Source of the DNA: an uncultured bacterium
GTDB taxonomy: Bacteria; Acidobacteriota; Thermoanaerobaculia; Multivoradales; JAHZIX01
DNA length: 64,000 nt
NCBI GenBank assembly: GCA_965368975.1
Contig: CBDUPA010000002.1
Location: forward strand, 192,001-256,000
Direction of reading: 5' to 3'
Shown here: piece by piece, positions 58,060 through 64,000 of the stretch
How positions within the stretch are numbered: the stretch's first letter is position 1
How the letters are laid out: every line of letters begins with the position of its first letter
Program-made: the position numbers and the translations under genes
The notes under the pieces: model-generated
Database searches by the model: none
Seen by the model: the letters and a program-made list of their open reading frames with translations, nothing else
What the model was told of the DNA's origin: nothing

Positions 58060-58191
58060 GCAGCAGCGCTCCCGTTCCCCAATCGAAGGTGCTAGCATGG
58101 CTACTCATGTCAAGTGTTGAGTCAGAAGTCGGCTGACGAGGAAGAGATCGGCGTCATTTGATTTGTGGTCCGAGGGCCCGGGGGGGCGATA

Positions 58192-59346
58192 GTGGAGACA
58201 CTGTCCAAACTGTGGAAGCACATCTGGAAGCGGCCGGATCCGCAGCTCGCGGAGGTCGGCTTCGATGGCGAGTACTTGATCGCGGGCGTGCGCCTTCTGA
58301 TTGTCGCACTGCTGATCTACATCCCACGCGACCTGCTCGGCGGCGGTCTTGGCACCAGTGGATTCCAGGCAGTGCTGCTCATCCTCGGTGCGGCCCTGTT
58401 CGAGACGCTCCTGGTCTACTCCGCCGTGCAGCGCAACTGGGGACGCTCCTGGCTCGGCTTCGTCAGTAGCCCAACCGACGTCACGCTGGTCAGTCTGGCG
58501 CTCCTGATCTACCTGTTCCTGGATCAGCCACCGTCGGCAATCAACGAGATCGTCATCTACCCCTTCTACTTTCTGGCGATCGGCGCCACGAGCCTGCGCT
58601 ACGACTCGCGGGTCTGCATGCTGACCGGCATCCTGGCTACCATCCAGTACGGCGGCATCGTGCTGCTGGCTCAGGACCGCTGGCCGCAACCGCACGAGGT
58701 TGGCTACCAGAGCTTCAACGGCCTGCACCAGCTGATCCGCATTGCCCTGTTGCTCGCCGCAACGCTGCTCGCAACCAGCCTTGTGGTACGTATCCGGGAA
58801 GCCGGCACACAGTCGATCCGCGACCGCCTGACCGGCTTGCTCAACCGTCGCGTGTTCGACGATCGCCTGCGCGAGGAAGCAGCGCGCGCCGGACGCACGG
58901 ACAAGACCCTCGGCTTGGCCATGATCGATGTCGATCACTTCAAGCAGTTCAACGACACCTTCGGGCATGAAGGTGGCGACGAGGCACTCAAGGCTGTCGG
59001 GGATCTACTCCTGCAGAGCTTCCGCGCCACCGACGTCGTAGCCCGCTACGGCGGCGAAGAGTTCGCCGTGCTGCTGCCCTGTATCGACACGATGAACGCC
59101 TTCAAGCGTCTCGAATCCGTACGCCTCGACATCGCCAACATGCCGATCCGCATGCGCGGACGTCCACTACCCGCGGGTGTCACCATCAGTTCCGGCGTCG
59201 CCATCTGGCCCGATGAAGGCGAGACGGTCGAAGAGGTTCTGGCCCTTGCCGACCAGCGCCTCTACCAAGCCAAGCAGGCCGGCCGCAACCGGGTCGTGTG
59301 CCCCCTCGAGATCGATATCCCCGAAGAGCTCATCTCCCTCTCCTGA
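58192..59346 (+). CDS. Membrane diguanylate cyclase
   Basis: Multi-TM N-terminus; DRLTGLLNRR, DVDHFKQFND, RATD I-site, RYGGEEF. Confidence 0.93.
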   Translation: METLSKLWKHIWKRPDPQLAEVGFDGEYLIAGVRLLIVALLIYIPRDLLGGGLGTSGFQAVLLILGAALFETLLVYSAVQRNWGRSWLGFVSSPTDVTLVSLALLIYLFLDQPPSAINEIVIYPFYFLAIGATSLRYDSRVCMLTGILATIQYGGIVLLAQDRWPQPHEVGYQSFNGLHQLIRIALLLAATLLATSLVVRIREAGTQSIRDRLTGLLNRRVFDDRLREEAARAGRTDKTLGLAMIDVDHFKQFNDTFGHEGGDEALKAVGDLLLQSFRATDVVARYGGEEFAVLLPCIDTMNAFKRLESVRLDIANMPIRMRGRPLPAGVTISSGVAIWPDEGETVEEVLALADQRLYQAKQAGRNRVVCPLEIDIPEELISLS

Positions 59347-59453: not shown

Positions 59454-60542
59454 ATGTTCGACAAGCTGCAGCAGATCGAGAAGACGCACGAGGAGCTGAC
59501 CCGCAAGCTGGCGGATCCGGCGATCCTTGGTGATCCCTCTGCAGTTCGCGACACGAGCATCGCACTGGCGGAACTGGAACCAGTCGTCGACCTTCTGCGC
59601 CAGTACAAGTCAGTGCGTCGCCAACGCGAAGAAACGGAAGAGATGCTCGCCGGCCTGGGCAAAGAAGACGGCGAGATGCGCGAGCTGGCACAGGTTGAGA
59701 GAGAAGAGCTGAGCCGCCGTCAGAGCGAACTCGACGAGTCCCTGCGCCAGGCCCTGGCTCCCAAGGACCCGAACGACAACCGCAATGTCGTGCTGGAGAT
59801 CCGCGCCGGGACCGGCGGCGATGAGGCGACGCTCTTCGCCGCCGAGCTGTTCCGCATGTACAGCCGCTACGCCGAGCGCCAAGGCTGGCGTGTCCAGATC
59901 ATCGACCTGTCGGAGTCCGACGTCGGTGGTGTCAAGGAAGTCTCGGCAATCCTCGAAGGCCGCGGTGCCTTCAGCCGCCTCAAGTACGAGGCCGGTGTCC
60001 ACCGGGTGCAGCGTGTACCCGCAACCGAGGCCCAGGGACGCATCCACACCTCGGCGGTGACCGTCGCGGTGCTGCCAGAAGCCGAGGATGTCGAAGTCTC
60101 GATCGACGAGAAGGAACTGAGGGTCGACCGTTTCTGTGCCTCAGGCCCTGGCGGTCAAGGCGTCAACACGACCTACTCCGCGGTGCGCCTGACCCACTTG
60201 CCCACCGGTCTCGTCGTGTCCTGCCAAGATGAGCGGAGTCAGATCAAGAACCGAGCCAAGGCGCTGCGCGTACTCAAGTCGAGGCTGCTCGAGCTGGAAA
60301 CCGAGAAAGCGCAGTCAGCCCAGAGTGAAGAACGCCGCCGGATGGTGGGAAGCGGGGACCGATCCGAGAAGATCCGTACCTACAACTTCCCGCAGAATCG
60401 GGTCACCGACCACCGGATCCACCTCACACTCCACCAGCTACCCAGCGTGATGGAAGGAGATCTGGATGCCGTGATCGACCCCGTGGTGGCGCACTTCCAA
60501 GCAGAAAAAATGGAGCAGGAGGCCCTGGCGACGACTCATTGA
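59454..60542 (+). CDS. prfA: Peptide chain release factor 1
   Basis: [18 protein letters not shown] (PxT), [17 protein letters not shown]. Confidence 0.97.
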
Positions 60543-60705
60543 TGAGTAGCCCCCCCGGCGTCGTCCTTAGGACTCGCAAGAGCCGCCTGGAAGAGAAAGG
60601 CATGCGATTCTGTCACGGTAGAGGCCTTGAACTGCACGTAACTAGCAGGCGGTCCTATCACTGACAGATCGAGCCTAAGTTCGTCACACACGGAGGGTTT
60701 TGGTT

Positions 60706-61011
60706 ATGACGTATCCACTTCGCGCTCTTGCATGCTTGACGGTCGCAGCCCTGTGCATGTTACCGATTGCTTCGGTGCATGCAGCACCGGACACTGGCCC
60801 TGCAAATTTCGACGAAACCCGCTATACTGGTGGAACCAACTTGTTCGACCTTCTGGTGGGCTGGCTCGGCAGCCTGGTGTCACCCCCGGAGGCCCCGGAG
60901 GGGCAACCTCCTACCGGCCTCGACACACAGACACCGACATCTTCGGACAGCTCGCAGACGGAAGATCCGGACAACAAGGGTGTTTACATCGATCCGATCG
61001 GTAACAGCTGA
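60706..61011 (+). CDS. Small secreted pre-pro-peptide ending in GVYIDPIGNS
   Basis: GGAGGG RBS; signal peptide VHA-A; amphipathic LFDLLVGWLGSLV; P/T/S/D-rich linker; DPxG tail. Confidence 0.78.
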   Translation: MTYPLRALACLTVAALCMLPIASVHAAPDTGPANFDETRYTGGTNLFDLLVGWLGSLVSPPEAPEGQPPTGLDTQTPTSSDSSQTEDPDNKGVYIDPIGNS

Positions 61012-61079
61012 GTCGCAGCAGGCGCGAGATCATGGGGAAAAGCGGGAGTGCTCAAGCTTGTTGGGTTGACAGTGAGGCT

Positions 61080-61619
61080 ATGATCAGTCCAGACGAACAC
61101 GTGCAGTCCGATGAAGGCTTCGAGTTCCTGTTGGAACGCGTACAGCCAACGCTGAAGCAGATCCTCGGCCGGTATCAGGTACCGGCGGCGGATGCAGAGG
61201 ATGTCCTCCAGGACACTCTTCTCACCCTGCTGTACAAGTGGGACACCGTACACAATCCCGAGGCCTGGCTGATCGGGACGCTCCGCCGACGCTGCATCAT
61301 GTACTGGCGGAGCCGCCGTTCCCGGCTCTACGAAGCCGTGGACGAGGCAATCTTGGAGTTGATGGCGGAAGGCGAATCTCCCTCGCAGGAGAACGCGATG
61401 CTGCGCCGTGACCTCGAGACCTCTCTAGCGCAATTGCCTTCCCGTTGCCGGGCCATGCTGCGCCTGCGCTACGGGCTCGGCATGAAGCCGGATGAGATCG
61501 CGGGGAGAATGGGGTATCGCAAGTCGAGCGTACGAAAAGTGGCCAACCGATGCCTGGCAGCGTTGATGCGCCAGCTTGTAGAGGTCGGCTTTCTGAACGA
61601 GGAGGCATCAGATGCCTGA
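61080..61619 (+). CDS. ECF sigma factor
   Basis: DAEDVLQDTL, EAWLIGTLRRRC, LAQLPSRCRAMLRLRY..EIA..MG. Confidence 0.9.
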   Translation: MISPDEHVQSDEGFEFLLERVQPTLKQILGRYQVPAADAEDVLQDTLLTLLYKWDTVHNPEAWLIGTLRRRCIMYWRSRRSRLYEAVDEAILELMAEGESPSQENAMLRRDLETSLAQLPSRCRAMLRLRYGLGMKPDEIAGRMGYRKSSVRKVANRCLAALMRQLVEVGFLNEEASDA

Positions 61620-62988
61620 GCAGCGGCCAGAAGAAGGACGTTTAGAACACGGAAACCGGGCGCAGATTCCGGGGGAGGAGCAGCGCCGAGCAGACGACAG
61701 CGCGGGTAGCACTCGCTCCCGGGCAGCCTTGAAATCCCTGTTCCGCAAGATCGAAGCTCAGGATCGGGACGCGACTCTGGGAGGTGCCTCTAAAGGCGGC
61801 GTCCTCGACTGGGACAAGAAAGAGTCCTCGCAGCGTACCGACTACAGCACTCTGGTGGAACGAGTCGTCTCGCGCATGGACAAGAAGCGGCAATTGTTGG
61901 CGAAGCAACGCGAGCAAGCACCAGTCTTGATGTCCGAGCTGCTCCGCCATCCGCCGGAACGACGGCAGGTTCTGCTCAACAACAGCCAACGCTACCGCAA
62001 CCTACCGTTGTGCGACGTGCTGCTGGAAGAGAGCCTGGAGAGTGGCTTCCGCAACCCCATGGAAGCCGTCGAGCTGGCGGAACTGGCGATCGACGTCGCC
62101 GACCGACTCGATCCCGAATCCTTCAGCCGTGCCGTCATCTACGACGTGCGCGCCCGCAGTTGGACGTTCCTGGCCAACGCCCGCCGTATCAGCGGCGAGT
62201 ACCGTACTGCGGCAGAAGCCTTCCGCCGTGCCGAGGTTCTGCTCGCCGGCGGCACCGGGGATCTGCTGGAACGCGCCCGCTTCTTCGCCTTCAAGGCGAC
62301 CCTGCACAGCGACCTGAGTCAGTATGAGCAGGCGCTGGCGCTGTTCGACCGCGCCATCCACATCTATCGCCGTTCCGGTGACGACCAGTTGCTCGGACAG
62401 CTGTTGATTCGCAAGGGCCTGCACTGTGGCAGCGCTGGCGACCCGCTGGGTGCCATCGAATTGCTACGCGAAGGCCTGAAGTTGGTCGATACCGACCAGG
62501 AACCGCGCTTGGCGCTGGCCGCGAACCATAGCCTGATCATCAACCTCAATGAGCTCGGCCAGCAGGACGAAGCCCTCGCACTGCTGGAGAACAGCCGGCC
62601 GATGTACAAGCGGCTCGGCGAGCGCATCAACCTGATGCGGCTTCGCTGGCTGGAGGCACGTCTGGCCCGCTCCCGGGACGAGTTGGAAGAGGCCGAGCGC
62701 GCTCTCACCGAGGCACGTCAAGCGTTCATCAACCAGCACCTCACCCACGAGGCGGCGCTCGTCTCGCTCGAACTGGCAGCGCTCTACTTGGAGCAGGGCC
62801 GCACGGCCGAGATCAAGGTGCTGGCGCGCGACATCTTCACCATCTTCAACTCGATTGACCTCAAGCGCGAGGCCTTTGCGGCACTCGTCCTGCTCGAGAA
62901 GTCGGCTCAGATGGAGACGGTCACCCTGACGCTGATCCAAGAGACGATGCATGCTCTGGCACGCTCGACTCGCCATTCGGGTGTCTGA
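61612..62988 (+). CDS. Cytoplasmic TPR-repeat protein
   Basis: Overlaps sigma by 8 bp; serial TPR-like units (ANARRISGEY..AAEAFRRA; QYEQALALFDRA; GDPLGAIELLREG); no TM or signal. Confidence 0.85.
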   Translation: MPEQRPEEGRLEHGNRAQIPGEEQRRADDSAGSTRSRAALKSLFRKIEAQDRDATLGGASKGGVLDWDKKESSQRTDYSTLVERVVSRMDKKRQLLAKQREQAPVLMSELLRHPPERRQVLLNNSQRYRNLPLCDVLLEESLESGFRNPMEAVELAELAIDVADRLDPESFSRAVIYDVRARSWTFLANARRISGEYRTAAEAFRRAEVLLAGGTGDLLERARFFAFKATLHSDLSQYEQALALFDRAIHIYRRSGDDQLLGQLLIRKGLHCGSAGDPLGAIELLREGLKLVDTDQEPRLALAANHSLIINLNELGQQDEALALLENSRPMYKRLGERINLMRLRWLEARLARSRDELEEAERALTEARQAFINQHLTHEAALVSLELAALYLEQGRTAEIKVLARDIFTIFNSIDLKREAFAALVLLEKSAQMETVTLTLIQETMHALARSTRHSGV

Positions 62989-63032
62989 ACGGGGCACCTG
63001 AGTATCCAACCACCGGGGAATCCTCTCGGTGG

Positions 63033-63083
63033 TGTAGGCAAGAGAAAAGGCGGTCCGACGGACCGCCTTTTCTCTTGCCTACA
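63033..63083. terminator. 24-bp perfect inverted repeat, bidirectional terminator
   Basis: TGTAGGCAAGAGAAAAGGCGGTCC-GAC-GGACCGCCTTTTCTCTTGCCTACA. Confidence 0.85.
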
Positions 63084-63142
63084 AAAGCTCCCGTCCCGAG
63101 AGACAGGAGCCACACACCGGGGCCGGCCACACAGACCCAGTT

Positions 63143-64000
63143 CTAGAGGTCTTTGACCTCGGCCACAAGGTCTTGCAGCATCTTCTTCGCGTCGCCGAAC
63201 AGCATCATGGTGTTGTCGTACTCGAAGAGTTCGTTCTTGATGCCAGCGAACCCCGGGCTCAGCGAACGCTTGATGACCATCACGGTCGCGGCATGTTGAA
63301 CCTCTAGGATTGGCATACCGGCAATCGGACTGTCTGGATCGTTCATCGCCGCCGGATTGACGACGTCGTTGGCACCCACCACGAGAACCACGTCGGTGTT
63401 GCGGAACTCTGGGTTGATCAGATCCATCTCCACCAGCTGCTCGTAGGGCACGTCCGCCTCCGCCAGCAGCACGTTCATGTGGCCCGGCATCCGGCCGGCG
63501 ACCGGATGGATTGCATACTTGACGTCGCAGCCCCGACCTTCCAGCAGGTTGGCCAGATCACGGACCGTGTGCTGCGCCTGCGCCACCGCCAAGCCATAAC
63601 CGGGAACAACGATGACCGAGGACGCCGAATCCATGACCATGGCTGCCTCTTCGGCGCTGTAGGAGCGCACGTTCGTGTACTCGCTCTTGCCGCCACCACC
63701 ACCGCCAGTGGACTCTTCGGCACCGAAACCACCGAACAAGACGTTGGCGAGCGAACGGTTCATGGCCACGCACATGATCTGGGTCAAGATCAAGCCCGAA
63801 GCACCGACCAGCGCACCACTGATGATCAGCAGGTTGTTCTGCAACACGAAGCCCGTCGCACAGGCAGCCAGGCCAGAGTAAGAGTTGAGCAGCGAGATGA
63901 CCACCGGCATGTCGGCACCCCCGATGGGGACGACCAGCAGCACACCGAGCACCAGCGCTGCGGCACTGAGAATCAGCATCACCTGCGCCATCTCGGCGAC
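63143..64000 (-). CDS. pntB: NAD(P) transhydrogenase beta subunit (3' part; 5' end beyond window)
   Basis: IGGADMPVVISLLNSYSG, AMNRS, PGYGLAVAQAQ, HPVAGRMPGHMNVLLAEA, GANDVVNP. Confidence 0.97.
   Translation of the reverse strand, partial: VAEMAQVMLILSAAALVLGVLLVVPIGGADMPVVISLLNSYSGLAACATGFVLQNNLLIISGALVGASGLILTQIMCVAMNRSLANVLFGGFGAEESTGGGGGGKSEYTNVRSYSAEEAAMVMDSASSVIVVPGYGLAVAQAQHTVRDLANLLEGRGCDVKYAIHPVAGRMPGHMNVLLAEADVPYEQLVEMDLINPEFRNTDVVLVVGANDVVNPAAMNDPDSPIAGMPILEVQHAATVMVIKRSLSPGFAGIKNELFEYDNTMMLFGDAKKMLQDLVAEVKDL

What the first reader, a model, noticed from the sequence alone, without database searches (positions are those of the whole stretch)
60706..62988. Candidate peptide-TPR-ECF signalling cassette (RRNPP-like logic in a diderm)
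Seen: three co-oriented genes closed by a strong terminator. The first is a 101-aa protein with a Sec signal, a short Trp-containing amphipathic helix, a disordered acidic linker and a compact C-terminal motif (DNKGVYIDPIGNS). The second is a canonical DAED-type ECF sigma. The third is a 458-aa all-TPR protein with no TM, HTH or catalytic motif, overlapping the sigma by 8 bp. Established: RRNPP systems (Rap/Phr, NprR/NprX, PlcR/PapR, AimR/AimP) pair a TPR receptor with a small secreted pro-peptide, often matured from its C-terminus and re-imported; ECF anti-sigmas are usually encoded directly downstream of the sigma. Inference: the TPR protein is a soluble anti-sigma/receptor gated by a GxxxDPxG peptide, i.e. 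a quorum or kin-sensing module. I recall similar unannotated DPxG-tailed small proteins beside such TPR proteins in Thermoanaerobaculia genomes but cannot verify that here.
Basis: partly seen in the sequence, partly recalled or inferred. Interest (0 to 1): 0.85.

Follow-up and report, generated by a model that had tools for sequence, protein, structure and literature searches.

The report
Peptide, sigma factor and TPR receptor cassette
A soil or sediment acidobacterium carries a three-gene unit (a small secreted peptide, a sigma factor and a repeat-protein partner) from a large uncharacterised family that resembles the peptide signalling systems so far described only in Gram-positive bacteria.

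Summary
The three genes, their 8-bp overlap and the closing hairpin are real. The cassette is conserved.

**Paralogs.** The TPR protein has 16 paralogs in its own genome. It has up to 40 or more copies per genome in relatives of the same Thermoanaerobaculia order. It was not found elsewhere in 200 sampled genomes of the phylum.

**Peptide pairing.** Small ORFs ending in 1-4 copies of G-x-x-[ILMF]-DPxG cluster beside these genes. In the own genome, 12 of 78 such ORFs lie within 700 bp of a family gene, against 0.33 expected. In 60 foreign loci the figure is 34 of 37.

**N-terminus.** The family's N-terminus is a ChrR-like zinc anti-sigma domain (E = 3e-7 against solved structures). The window's clade has lost the zinc ligands but stays sigma-linked.

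**Sister variant.** Sister receptors carry an XRE HTH instead and are also paired with DPxG peptides. That is the RRNPP architecture.

**Promoter.** A TGTCCC-N17-GCACT promoter precedes 11 of 12 sigma-linked peptide genes.

**Untested.** Peptide-TPR binding, sigma-TPR binding, and export and re-import of the peptide are all untested. The one complex prediction gave no verdict.

**Verdict.** This is a new variant that combines ECF/anti-sigma logic with RRNPP-like logic. Interest is high.

The parts
60611..60638 (+). Promoter-like element TGTCAC-N17-GCACG, about 68 nt upstream of the peptide start. I infer it is the ECF-dependent, autoregulated promoter of the operon.
   Evidence: 11 of 12 sigma-linked peptide genes from different families of the order carry TGTC[CAT][CA]-N17-[GAT]CAC[TCG] 55-105 nt upstream, with unrelated spacers. 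This site is the top PWM hit in the own genome. No sigma-70-like promoter was found in 60300-63300.
60692..60697 (+). Shine-Dalgarno GGAGGG, 8 nt before the ATG at 60706.
   Evidence: Read directly from the sequence.
60706..61011 (+). Gene for a 101-aa pre-pro-peptide: signal peptide, Trp amphipathic helix, acidic/Pro-rich linker, G-x-x-I-D-P-x-G tail.
   Evidence: ORF. No Pfam or NCBIfam family. The same layout occurs upstream of the sigma gene in 5 of 5 same-family orthologous loci and in many paralogous loci.
60706..60783 (+). Predicted Sec signal peptide (residues 1-26, cleavage after VHA).
   Evidence: KD19 maximum of 1.98 at residue 8. The AXA-type site was read by eye. No dedicated predictor was available.
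60838..60879 (+). Trp-containing amphipathic helix NLFDLLVGWLGSLV (residues 45-58).
   Evidence: An aligned W-containing hydrophobic/acidic segment follows the signal peptide in most of the 34 peptides of alignment A4.
60979..61002 (+). C-terminal motif GVYIDPIG (residues 92-99). This is the candidate mature signal.
   Evidence: The motif G-x-x-[ILMF]-[DNEG]-P-x-G is present in 12 of 12 sigma-linked peptides. It is tandemly repeated in paralogs, and the repeat units differ only by synonymous changes.
61032..61619 (+). ECF sigma factor (195 aa; the likely true start is ATG 61080, giving 179 aa).
   Evidence: Sigma70_r2 and r4_2; TIGR02937. Fifteen orthologs show 27 invariant columns, including three Cys. 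Relatives at 42% identity or more are all Thermoanaerobaculia or Acidobacteriota MAGs.
61612..62988 (+). 458-aa cytoplasmic receptor / putative anti-sigma factor: a degenerate anti-sigma-domain remnant plus a long helix plus about 8-9 TPR-like repeats.
   Evidence: TPR families only. AF2 model with pLDDT 88.6. Foldseek finds LGN/Pins and Rap-Phr receptors. It sits in a clade of sigma-adjacent proteins.
61612..61836 (+). N-terminal region (residues 1-75). It is homologous in position to the ChrR-like zinc anti-sigma domain of the family but lacks the H/H/C/C ligands.
   Evidence: Alignment A1. hhalign of the same-family N-termini against the zinc-type N-termini gives probability 96.8%, with most of the score coming from the following helix. 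The region has low pLDDT.
61843..62970 (+). Helical repeat (TPR) sensor domain, residues 78-453.
   Evidence: pLDDT is mostly above 94, with 18 helices. N189, R192, G214 and W346 are among the columns conserved in 90% or more of 87 family members.
63034..63082 (.). Perfect palindromic hairpin with a T-run on both strands. It acts as a bidirectional terminator between this operon and the convergent gene at 63143-63991.
   Evidence: Fold at -52.7 kcal/mol, z = -9.46, and 0 of 200 shuffles fold as well. Sequence.

Best explanation
The locus is one operon of a signalling family specific to one order of Thermoanaerobaculia.

**Inferred steps.**
- An ECF sigma factor transcribes its own operon from a TGTCAC-N17-GCACG promoter.
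- The first gene product is exported by Sec.
- The exported product yields a short peptide built around the motif G-x-x-Phi-D-P-x-G.
- The third gene product is a cytoplasmic protein. Its ancestors carried a ChrR-type zinc anti-sigma domain fused to a TPR sensor.
- That protein holds the sigma factor inactive, and its hold changes when the TPR groove binds the cognate peptide. This could happen after re-import, or with peptide that never left the cell.
- The result would be a peptide-gated positive feedback loop, RRNPP-like in logic but acting through sigma sequestration rather than DNA binding.

**Shown here.**
- The genes are real.
- Peptide and TPR genes are paired across more than 60 loci.
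- The family's N-terminus is homologous to an anti-sigma domain.
- Sigma-adjacent receptors cluster on the tree.
- A promoter motif is conserved.
- HTH-output sister receptors exist and have the same kind of peptide.

**Inferred only.**
- Every binding step.
- The sign of regulation.
- Processing of the peptide.
- The route by which the peptide reaches the receptor.
For: 1. **Own genome.** There are 17 family genes: HMM scores of 281 bits or more, with the next best at 87.5. Of 71,619 ORFs of 25-250 aa, 78 end in [ILVMF]DPxG. Twelve of those 78 lie within 700 bp of the 17 genes, against 0.33 expected (Poisson 2e-15).
2. **Foreign loci.** In 60 loci from 11 other genomes there are 80 family genes. 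Of the 37 motif ORFs lying outside those genes, 34 fall in the 18.7% of sequence within 700 bp of one (binomial 8e-22). Of 35 neighbouring motif ORFs, 31 have an N-terminal hydrophobic segment.
3. **Repeat units.** Units in two paralogous peptides differ only by synonymous changes.
4. **Synteny.** All 5 best orthologs in the same family keep the order peptide-sigma-TPR. Their tails are IDPDG, IGPDG, INPDG/IEPNG, IDPIG and INPDG. The release-factor gene lies upstream in 3 of them.
5. **Sigma-adjacent receptors elsewhere.** Of 15 such receptors in the 60 loci, 8 have a strict-motif peptide and 4 more have a variant: WDPSG, WDPNG, SNPDG, IDGNG.
6. **Anti-sigma domain.** A profile of 55 N-termini has C35 and C38 invariant, and H5 and H30 present in 90% or more. 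Its best hits among 177,635 solved-structure sequences are anti-sigma factors: ChrR (E = 3e-7), DdvA (1e-6), 3hug_B (1e-3; I recall this as RslA) and RsiW (0.07).
7. **Tree.** The window protein sits in a 6-leaf clade (support 100) in which all members are sigma-adjacent. That clade lies inside a 15-leaf clade (support 90) with 14 of 15 sigma-adjacent and 9 carrying the zinc motif. Of 26 sigma-adjacent rows, 25 fall in one 55-leaf clade (support 79).
8. **Promoter.** The motif is present in 11 of 12 sigma-linked peptide genes. Orphan peptide genes exceed the 99th percentile of 2000 control windows in 5 of 22 cases. Three orphan TPR paralogs in the own genome have strong PWM hits 34-313 nt from the called gene start.
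9. **TPR fold.** pLDDT is 88.6. Its structural neighbours are peptide-wrapping TPR receptors: LGN, and 4gyo (a Rap protein complexed with competence and sporulation factor) at TMq 0.54, plus phage Rap-Phr.
10. **HTH sisters.** Sister receptors with an XRE HTH (Pfam HTH_3/HTH_31 in 10 of 10 tested) are paired with DPxG peptides in 14 of 20 loci.
11. **Import and envelope.** The genome has 5 SBP_bac_5 (Opp/Dpp-type) hits and 6 Omp85 hits.
Against: - The window copy and its 5 same-family orthologs lack all four putative zinc ligands. Residues 1-75 are low-confidence in the model, so anti-sigma activity of this particular copy is less certain. [quoted passage not shown]
- Pfam zf-HC2 reached only sub-threshold scores, in 3 of 10 N-termini. 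It reached none at E <= 0.01 in 18 full-length members.
- Only 1 of 17 family genes in this genome is next to a Sigma70_r2 hit, and only 15 of 80 in the foreign set. Most receptors have no adjacent sigma.
- 47 of 80 foreign receptors have no strict-motif ORF within 1400 bp.
- About 8 of the 12 own-genome peptides are short (25-50 aa) and have no signal peptide. Export is therefore not universal.
- Sigma relatives in 7 of 12 named MAG loci are not followed by a family TPR gene.
- No Opp gene lies beside any of the loci examined.
- The receptors show no sequence homology to RRNPP receptors beyond generic TPR and HTH.
Confidence: 0.55

Rival explanations
1. **Regulated output, not ligand.** The small protein is simply the main target gene of each regulator. 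It could be a membrane-active amphipathic peptide, a bacteriocin-like product or a matrix peptide whose DPxG turns are structural. The TPR domain would then sense something else, such as another protein or a metabolite.
For: - Adjacency and a shared promoter fit a regulator-target pair as well as a receptor-ligand pair.
- The conserved Trp amphipathic helix has no counterpart that I know of in RRNPP pro-peptides and could be an effector part.
- These peptides are longer (80-130 aa) than typical pro-pheromones; that comparison is recalled.
- The complex prediction gave no verdict, so nothing supports binding.
Against: - Two different output domains, anti-sigma-like and XRE HTH, are each paired one to one with the same peptide type. 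This is what is expected if the shared TPR domain reads the peptide.
- Up to 4 tandem copies of a 9-residue unit, kept by purely synonymous divergence, look like a multi-copy signal precursor.
- The residues flanking the motif differ in all 12 own-genome peptides.
Confidence: 0.2
2. **Secretion-coupled partner switch.** The TPR protein binds the not-yet-exported pre-peptide in the cytoplasm, much as type III secretion class II TPR chaperones bind their substrates. Export of the peptide frees or engages the TPR protein for the sigma factor. The module would then report Sec or export flux rather than cell density.
For: - The receptor is cytoplasmic, while most partner peptides carry signal peptides.
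- No importer gene is linked to the loci.
- Some own-genome peptides lack signal peptides and would stay in the cytoplasm.
- The chaperone/co-activator circuits IpgC-MxiE and SicA-InvF are recalled from memory and come from no call.
Against: - In the HTH-type partners the motif units are flanked by Cys (G-C-x-Phi-DPxG-x-C). This suggests disulfide-closed loops that form outside the cytoplasm.
- Multi-copy precursors suggest proteolytic release of units.
Confidence: 0.13
3. **Positive partner, not inhibitor.** The TPR protein would be required for sigma activity, as the fused TPR extension is in ECF42 sigma factors. Loss of the zinc anti-sigma motif in this clade would mark a change of function.
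For: - The window clade has lost the H/C ligands yet keeps tight gene coupling with the sigma gene.
- Passages read in PMC8999054 say that the TPR extension of ECF42 is essential for activity.
Against: - The nearest zinc-bearing relatives in the same 15-leaf clade are homologous to the anti-sigma factor ChrR.
- Passages read in PMC7406223 say that non-zinc class I anti-sigma domains are common and functional.
Confidence: 0.1
4. **Chance or annotation artefact.** The small ORF would not be a gene, and the DPxG strings would be by-products of GC-rich sequence.
For: - DP.G is built from GC-rich codons. 66 of the 78 genome-wide motif ORFs lie away from family genes.
- 4 of the 35 foreign neighbours look spurious.
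Against: - The enrichment is strong: 12 observed against 0.33 expected, and 34 of 37.
- Signal peptides, ribosome-binding sites, synonymous-only divergence between repeat units, and synteny across families all point to real genes.
Confidence: 0.02

Closest known systems
RRNPP(A) peptide quorum-sensing systems of Bacillota (Rap/Phr, NprR/NprX, PlcR/PapR, Rgg/SHP, PrgX, AimR/AimP)
   Same: - A cytoplasmic receptor with a TPR-type sensor is encoded beside a small pro-peptide gene.
- The conserved element sits at the peptide's C-terminus.
- There are many paralogous pairs per genome.
- Sister receptors here have an N-terminal XRE HTH.
- The TPR model superposes on Rap-pheromone complexes: 4gyo at TMq 0.54, and the 8rtc/8rst series.
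   Different: - The host phylum is a diderm (Omp85 hits).
- There is no sequence homology beyond generic TPR and HTH. RapH appears only at E = 4e-5 in a TPR stretch.
- The window's receptor has no HTH. It descends from an anti-sigma domain and is coupled to an ECF sigma factor.
- The peptides are longer, carry an extra Trp helix, and often hold 2-4 motif copies.
- The RRNPP papers I looked at treat the family as one of Firmicutes (abstracts in the listing; term searches of the text).
ChrR-sigmaE of Rhodobacter sphaeroides and other zinc-binding class I anti-sigma factors (RsrA, RslA, RsiW, DdvA)
   Same: - The family N-terminus aligns with ChrR over about 90 residues, including H...H-x3/4-C-x2-C.
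- The protein is soluble: an anti-sigma domain followed by a C-terminal sensor domain.
- The gene lies directly downstream of the ECF sigma gene and overlaps it.
   Different: - The sensor is an approximately 380-residue TPR superhelix, not a cupin.
- A dedicated small peptide gene accompanies it.
- Most members are orphans with no adjacent sigma gene.
- The window's clade has lost the zinc ligands.
ECF42 sigma factors (TPR extension fused to the sigma factor)
   Same: An ECF sigma factor works with a TPR module (passages).
   Different: - Here the TPR is a separate protein with an anti-sigma-type N-terminus.
- In ECF42 the TPR is fused to the sigma factor and needed for its activity.
- No peptide partner for ECF42 is mentioned in the passages I read.
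Type III secretion class II TPR chaperone / co-activator circuits (IpgC-MxiE, SicA-InvF) and FlgM-sigma28. These are recalled from memory and come from no call.
   Same: A TPR protein or anti-sigma factor whose availability to a transcription factor depends on export of a partner.
   Different: - No secretion apparatus is linked to these loci.
- The partners here are Sec substrates or leaderless peptides.
- No homology was tested.

Membership tests
RRNPP(A) receptor-propeptide systems | Cytoplasmic receptor with a C-terminal TPR-like peptide-binding superhelix | tested here: met
   TPR Pfam hits. No transmembrane segment. AF2 model with pLDDT 88.6. Foldseek hits to Rap-Phr complexes and other peptide-wrapping TPRs.
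RRNPP(A) receptor-propeptide systems | N-terminal HTH DNA-binding domain (or the Rap 3-helix bundle) as effector | tested here: not met
   The window protein has no HTH. Sister receptors in other genomes of the order do: HTH_3/HTH_31 in 10 of 10 tested.
RRNPP(A) receptor-propeptide systems | Adjacent small gene for an exported pro-peptide whose C-terminal part is the signal | tested here: inconclusive
   Adjacency and a conserved C-terminal motif are shown. Export is predicted for most peptides. Maturation and signalling are untested.
RRNPP(A) receptor-propeptide systems | Sequence homology to Rap/NprR/PlcR/Rgg/PrgX/AimR | tested here: not met
   Profile searches of solved structures return generic TPR and XRE hits. 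The only RRNPP member is RapH, at E = 4e-5 over one TPR stretch. No NCBIfam RRNPP model is hit.
RRNPP(A) receptor-propeptide systems | Peptide re-imported by an oligopeptide permease and bound by the receptor | not testable with these tools
   Five SBP_bac_5 genes exist in the genome, none linked to the loci. The complex prediction gave no verdict.
Class I (ASDI) zinc-binding anti-sigma factors | Encoded next to, and co-transcribed with, an ECF sigma gene | tested here: met
   8-bp overlap with the sigma gene. 14 of 15 proteins in its clade are sigma-adjacent.
Class I (ASDI) zinc-binding anti-sigma factors | N-terminal anti-sigma domain homologous to ChrR/RsrA/RslA | tested here: inconclusive
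   For the family this is met: ChrR is the top hit at E = 3e-7. For the window copy only a degenerate remnant aligns. Foldseek with an N-terminal model found nothing significant.
Class I (ASDI) zinc-binding anti-sigma factors | H-x3-C-x2-C zinc motif | tested here: not met
   The motif is absent from the window protein and its 5 same-family orthologs. H-x3/4-C-x2-C is present in 73 of 126 family rows, and C-x2-C in 71 of 80 foreign members.
Class I (ASDI) zinc-binding anti-sigma factors | Binds and inhibits its sigma factor | not testable with these tools
ECF (group 4) sigma factors | Sigma-70 regions 2 and 4 only, about 180-200 aa | tested here: met
   Sigma70_r2, r4_2 and TIGR02937. The ECF group number was not determined. 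The group tables of PMC7826278 are in supplements that I could not see.
ECF42-type TPR-dependent sigma factors | TPR domain fused to the C-terminus of the sigma factor | tested here: not met
   The sigma is 195 aa with no extension, and the TPR is a separate gene.

The most novel reading that the evidence does not exclude
Thermoanaerobaculia (Acidobacteriota) would possess a native peptide-pheromone signalling superfamily of their own, analogous to RRNPP.

- Each genome would run dozens of orthogonal channels. Each channel would be a secreted or leaderless G-x-x-Phi-DPxG peptide, sometimes disulfide-closed and sometimes multi-copy.
- Each peptide would be read by its own cytoplasmic TPR receptor.
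- The receptors would output either through an XRE HTH or through a ChrR-type anti-sigma domain that gates ECF sigma factors. To my knowledge the second output has no precedent.
- The window's cassette would then be a peptide-gated anti-sigma switch with autoinduction. Orphan receptors would converge on a few sigma paralogs, and possibly control secondary-metabolite genes.
Probability: 0.35. Interest if true: 0.9.

Novelty: new variant of a known kind. Interest (0 to 1): 0.8.

Why it matters
**Phylum range.** Peptide-receptor quorum sensing of the RRNPP type is treated as a trait of Bacillota and their mobile elements (abstracts in the listing; term searches of two RRNPP papers). A large, independently evolved look-alike in a diderm soil and sediment phylum would change that picture.

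**A new way to control ECF sigma factors.** This would be a soluble anti-sigma factor whose sensor is a peptide-binding TPR domain.

**Size of the family.** It is large and unnamed:
- 6,410 representative clusters at E <= 1e-30.
- Public names are 'hypothetical' or 'TPR repeat protein'.
- The peptides have no Pfam or NCBIfam model.

**Testability.** The parts are small. The peptides can be synthesised. The promoter motif gives a ready reporter.

Tried and rejected
**Complex prediction.** TPR residues 70-458 with peptide residues 28-101, both supplied as alignments, returned 'no answer' (scores 0.30 and 0.00; the mark is 0.32). It says nothing either way.

**Anti-sigma domain by fold.** An AF2 model of a zinc-type N-terminus (pLDDT 80.9) gave no significant Foldseek match. 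The best were E = 8 and 9.7, the latter being RsiW.

**Pfam zf-HC2.** None at E <= 0.01 in 18 full-length members. It was sub-threshold in 3 of 10 isolated N-termini.

**Peptide paralogs by sequence.** None were found in the own genome; the next best hit had E = 0.11. The family is recognisable only by its layout and motif.

**Expression.** No RNA holder was listed. Eight DNA runs from 4 studies held shares of 0.15 or less.

**Simple promoter/terminator scan.** It missed the hairpin and found no sigma-70 promoter.

**Regulon guess.**
- PWM hits of 17.3 or more in the own genome are 15 of 17 intergenic by a crude coding test.
- The ORFs downstream of ten PWM hits (scores 15.1-19.7) include two histidine kinases, an NRPS condensation protein, an MbtH-like protein, a radical-SAM protein, and PA-domain and Peptidase_S74 proteins.
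- This is a lead only. The PWM comes from 11 sites.

**Not done.**
- No test of co-variation between peptide and TPR. Co-duplication would give a correlation without any binding.
- No ECF group assignment.
- No signal-peptide predictor.

**Literature.**
- Searches found no paper on TPR-peptide-sigma systems in Acidobacteriota.
- I read passages only, by term search, in PMC7826278, PMC8999054, PMC9765709, PMC10075063 and PMC7406223.
- Supplements are closed. The ECF group tables of PMC7826278 may name this sigma's group and its neighbours.

Full report
**Observation**

The window holds three co-oriented ORFs at the stated place:
- a small ORF at 60706-61011 (101 aa from the ATG, with GGAGGG 8 nt upstream);
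- an ECF sigma gene at 61032-61619;
- a 458-aa ORF at 61612-62988 that overlaps the sigma gene by 8 bp.

Pfam and NCBIfam find nothing for the small protein. They find Sigma70_r2/r4_2 and TIGR02937 for the second protein, and only TPR models for the third. The small protein has a hydrophobic N-terminus (KD19 1.98), one Trp in NLFDLLVGWLGSLV, an acidic Pro-rich linker, and the tail GVYIDPIGNS. The TPR protein has no segment hydrophobic enough to span a membrane.

The 'strong terminator' is a perfect palindrome at 63034-63082, beyond the stated end. It folds at -52.7 kcal/mol, z = -9.5, and 0 of 200 shuffles fold as well. It has T-runs on both strands, so it serves both this operon and the convergent gene. 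The simple scan did not list it. Orthologs of the sigma begin at a position matching the internal ATG at 61080.

**The TPR protein belongs to an expanded family**

The own genome is 7.1 Mb in 59 contigs, 65% G+C, and 99% complete. It holds 17 members: HMM scores of 281 bits or more, with the next best ORF at 87.5.

Of 37 Sigma70_r2 matches in this genome, only the window's lies beside a family member.

Two families of the order have none (0 of 4 and 0 of 3).

In an even sample of 200 further genomes of the phylum, only 2 matched at E <= 1e-25, and both belong to the same order. In that mode only 8 candidates per genome were scored.

Sigma relatives with 42% identity or more are all MAGs labelled Thermoanaerobaculia or Acidobacteriota (12 loci; the next best are 35% or less). 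Named homologs of the TPR protein are almost all Thermoanaerobaculia 'hypothetical' or 'TPR repeat' proteins.

A profile of 87 members finds 6,410 representative clusters at E <= 1e-30 in 1.84 billion. The best 150 are all full-length matches above 447 bits.

**The peptide goes with the TPR gene, not with the sigma gene**

*Own genome.* 78 of 71,619 ORFs of 25-250 aa have [ILVMF]DPxG in their last 30 residues. Twelve of the 78 lie within 700 bp of the 17 family genes, against 0.33 expected (Poisson 2e-15). Ten of the 12 are upstream on the same strand. Several carry tandem units: a 9-residue unit four times, another three times, another twice. The DNA copies of the two longest arrays (the four-copy and three-copy units) differ only at synonymous positions. 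That argues for selection on the peptide. By my reading of ribosome-binding sites, about 8 of these 12 are short (25-50 aa) and lack a signal peptide.

*Foreign loci.* In 60 loci of about 10 kb from 11 other genomes there are 80 family genes. 39 of 4,861 small ORFs carry the motif.
- Two lie inside family genes.
- Of the other 37, 34 lie within 700 bp of a family gene, a zone that is 18.7% of the non-gene sequence.
- Three lie more than 2 kb away (binomial 8e-22).

33 of the 80 genes have such an ORF within 1400 bp, and 47 do not. Of the 35 neighbours, 31 have a hydrophobic N-terminal segment. Most show the same layout: signal peptide, Trp amphipathic helix, linker, then 1-3 motif copies. Four look spurious.

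No Pfam family matches any of 34 peptides, and no NCBIfam family matches 7 tested plus the window's. The language-model atlas places the window peptide next to unnamed clusters of about 100 aa from Acidobacteriota. This is a lead only.

**The triad is conserved in a subfamily**

The five best orthologs in the same family all have the sigma gene directly upstream and a signal-peptide ORF upstream of that. Their tails are IDPDG, IGPDG, INPDG plus IEPNG, IDPIG and INPDG. Three also show the release-factor gene upstream, as in the window.

Of 15 sigma-adjacent receptors in the 60 loci, 8 have a strict-motif peptide. Four more have variants (WDPSG, WDPNG, SNPDG, three copies of IDGNG). Three had no candidate within 700 bp upstream of the sigma gene.

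On a FastTree of 126 family proteins:
- the window sits in a 6-leaf clade (support 100) in which all members are sigma-adjacent;
- that clade lies inside a 15-leaf clade (support 90) with 14 of 15 sigma-adjacent;
- 25 of the 26 sigma-adjacent rows fall in one 55-leaf clade (support 79).

The tree has long-branch warnings, and I did not run AU tests.

Seven of the 12 named MAG loci with a related sigma lack a family TPR gene downstream. So the sigma subfamily is wider than the triad. The own genome has four further sigma paralogs (E from 3e-62 to 6e-23), none next to a family gene.

**What the receptor is**

Outside the window's family, the N-terminus reads H-P-x(24)-H-L-x(2-3)-C-x-x-C. C-x2-C is present in 71 of 80 foreign members, and the strict H-x3-C-x2-C in 28 of 80.

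In 55 aligned N-termini, C35 and C38 are invariant, and H5 and H30 are present in 90% or more.

That profile's best hits among all solved-structure sequences are anti-sigma factors:
- ChrR (2q1z_B, 2z2s_B; E = 3e-7; about 90 aligned residues including the ligands);
- DdvA (8rlz, E = 1e-6; 8rot, E = 8e-5);
- 3hug_B (E = 1e-3). I recall this as RslA; the record calls it a membrane protein.
- RsiW (E = 0.07).

That ChrR's zinc ligands are H6, H31, C35 and C38 is my recollection, not a tool result.

The family is therefore a soluble class I anti-sigma domain fused to a TPR sensor. The window protein and its five same-family orthologs have lost all four ligands. hhalign still relates their N-termini to the zinc type (96.8%), but mostly through the following helix.

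The AF2 model (pLDDT 88.6) shows residues 78-453 as 18 helices, with residues 1-75 poorly defined. Foldseek puts it nearest to peptide-wrapping TPR receptors:
- LGN/Pins;
- 4gyo, a Rap protein complexed with competence and sporulation factor (TMq 0.54, rmsd 5.0);
- phage Rap-Phr complexes;
- a C-degron receptor.

**Sister receptors with an HTH**

About 20 of the best 120 homologs carry XRE-type HTH domains in front of the same TPR domain. Full-length matches occur about 20 times each in four genomes of one family of the order. All 10 tested have HTH_3/HTH_31 hits at the N-terminus.

In 14 of 20 such loci the neighbour is a signal-peptide protein with a Trp helix and 2-4 units of G-C-x-Phi-DPxG-x-C. 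In all 14 it lies on the opposite strand.

Two different output domains paired with one peptide type is the strongest indirect argument that the shared TPR domain reads the peptide. By sequence these receptors hit only XRE repressors and generic TPRs (RapH at E = 4e-5), not PlcR, NprR or Rgg. I therefore call this analogy of architecture, not membership.

**Promoter**

Eleven of 12 sigma-linked peptide genes, from several families of the order, carry TGTC[CAT][CA]-N17-[GAT]CAC[TCG] 55-105 nt upstream, with unrelated spacers. The window's site is at 60611-60638.

With a PWM built from these 11 sites, 5 of 22 orphan peptide genes exceed the 99th percentile of 2000 control windows, and 8 of 22 exceed the 95th. 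Those above the 99th percentile lie about 96-106 nt upstream.

In the own genome three orphan TPR paralogs have strong hits 34-313 nt from the called gene start. I infer an ECF-type, autoregulated promoter. No experiment supports this.

**Mechanism and its weak points**

The best reading is a peptide-gated anti-sigma switch with positive feedback. Its weak points are these:
- No binding is shown. The only complex job gave no verdict and counts for nothing.
- The window's anti-sigma remnant is degenerate.
- Most receptors have no adjacent sigma gene, and many have no detected peptide.
- Some peptides lack signal peptides.
- No importer is linked, although the genome has 5 SBP_bac_5 and 6 Omp85 hits.

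The rivals are:
- the peptide is the regulated output;
- a secretion-coupled partner switch;
- the TPR protein is a positive co-factor, as in ECF42.

**Novelty**

Six literature searches found nothing on such systems. No listed paper holds both 'RRNPP' and 'Acidobacteriota'. I read only passages from five papers, and supplements were closed. I rate this a new variant that joins two known kinds: ECF with a class I anti-sigma factor, and an RRNPP-like receptor-propeptide pair.

Noticed in passing
Own genome outside the window: G000 C21, about 93192-93891, minus strand, beside the family gene C21:94481-95725: Two small ORFs (67 and 77 aa) with a Lys/Arg-rich leader that ends in GG and an identical Cys-containing C-terminus. 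They look like precursors of a modified peptide or bacteriocin.
   Followed up: no
window 61032-61619: Three Cys of the sigma factor (C88, C139, C174) are invariant in 15 orthologs. This is unusual for an ECF sigma factor and could be a redox or metal site.
   Followed up: no
window 61032-61080: Orthologs of the sigma start at a position matching the internal ATG at 61080, so the first 16 codons of the called ORF may not be translated.
   Followed up: partly
Own genome: C8:29836, C1:87465, C24:18955, C24:25128, C5:285354, C8:209373, C10:133211 and others: High-scoring copies of the TGTCnC-N17-GCACT motif lie upstream of genes for two histidine kinases (one with TPRs), an NRPS condensation protein, an MbtH-like protein, a radical-SAM protein, and PA-domain and Peptidase_S74 proteins. 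This may be the sigma's regulon, but the PWM rests on only 11 sites.
   Followed up: partly
L122 (G021:C1:860301-874798), L173, L178, L044: Tandem arrays of sigma-TPR modules, and in one named MAG three related sigma genes in a row without TPR genes.
   Followed up: partly
Own genome: contexts of C1:309663-310994 and C44:5124-6392: Separate XRE-like proteins of about 230 aa lie 2-3 kb upstream of two family genes that lack the zinc motif. They may be a split form of the HTH-TPR receptors. The HTH was read by eye only.
   Followed up: no
window 58165-59346, 59454-60542, 63143-63991 (minus): By eye, the neighbours are a membrane GGDEF-type protein (GGEEF string), peptide chain release factor 1 (GGQ string), and a membrane protein that looks like a transhydrogenase beta subunit. 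No family scan was run on them.
   Followed up: no
L212-L230 (HTH-type loci): In the partners of the HTH-type receptors each DPxG unit is bracketed by Cys (G-C-x-Phi-DPxG-x-C). This suggests disulfide-closed loops. A few partners of the anti-sigma type show the same feature.
   Followed up: partly
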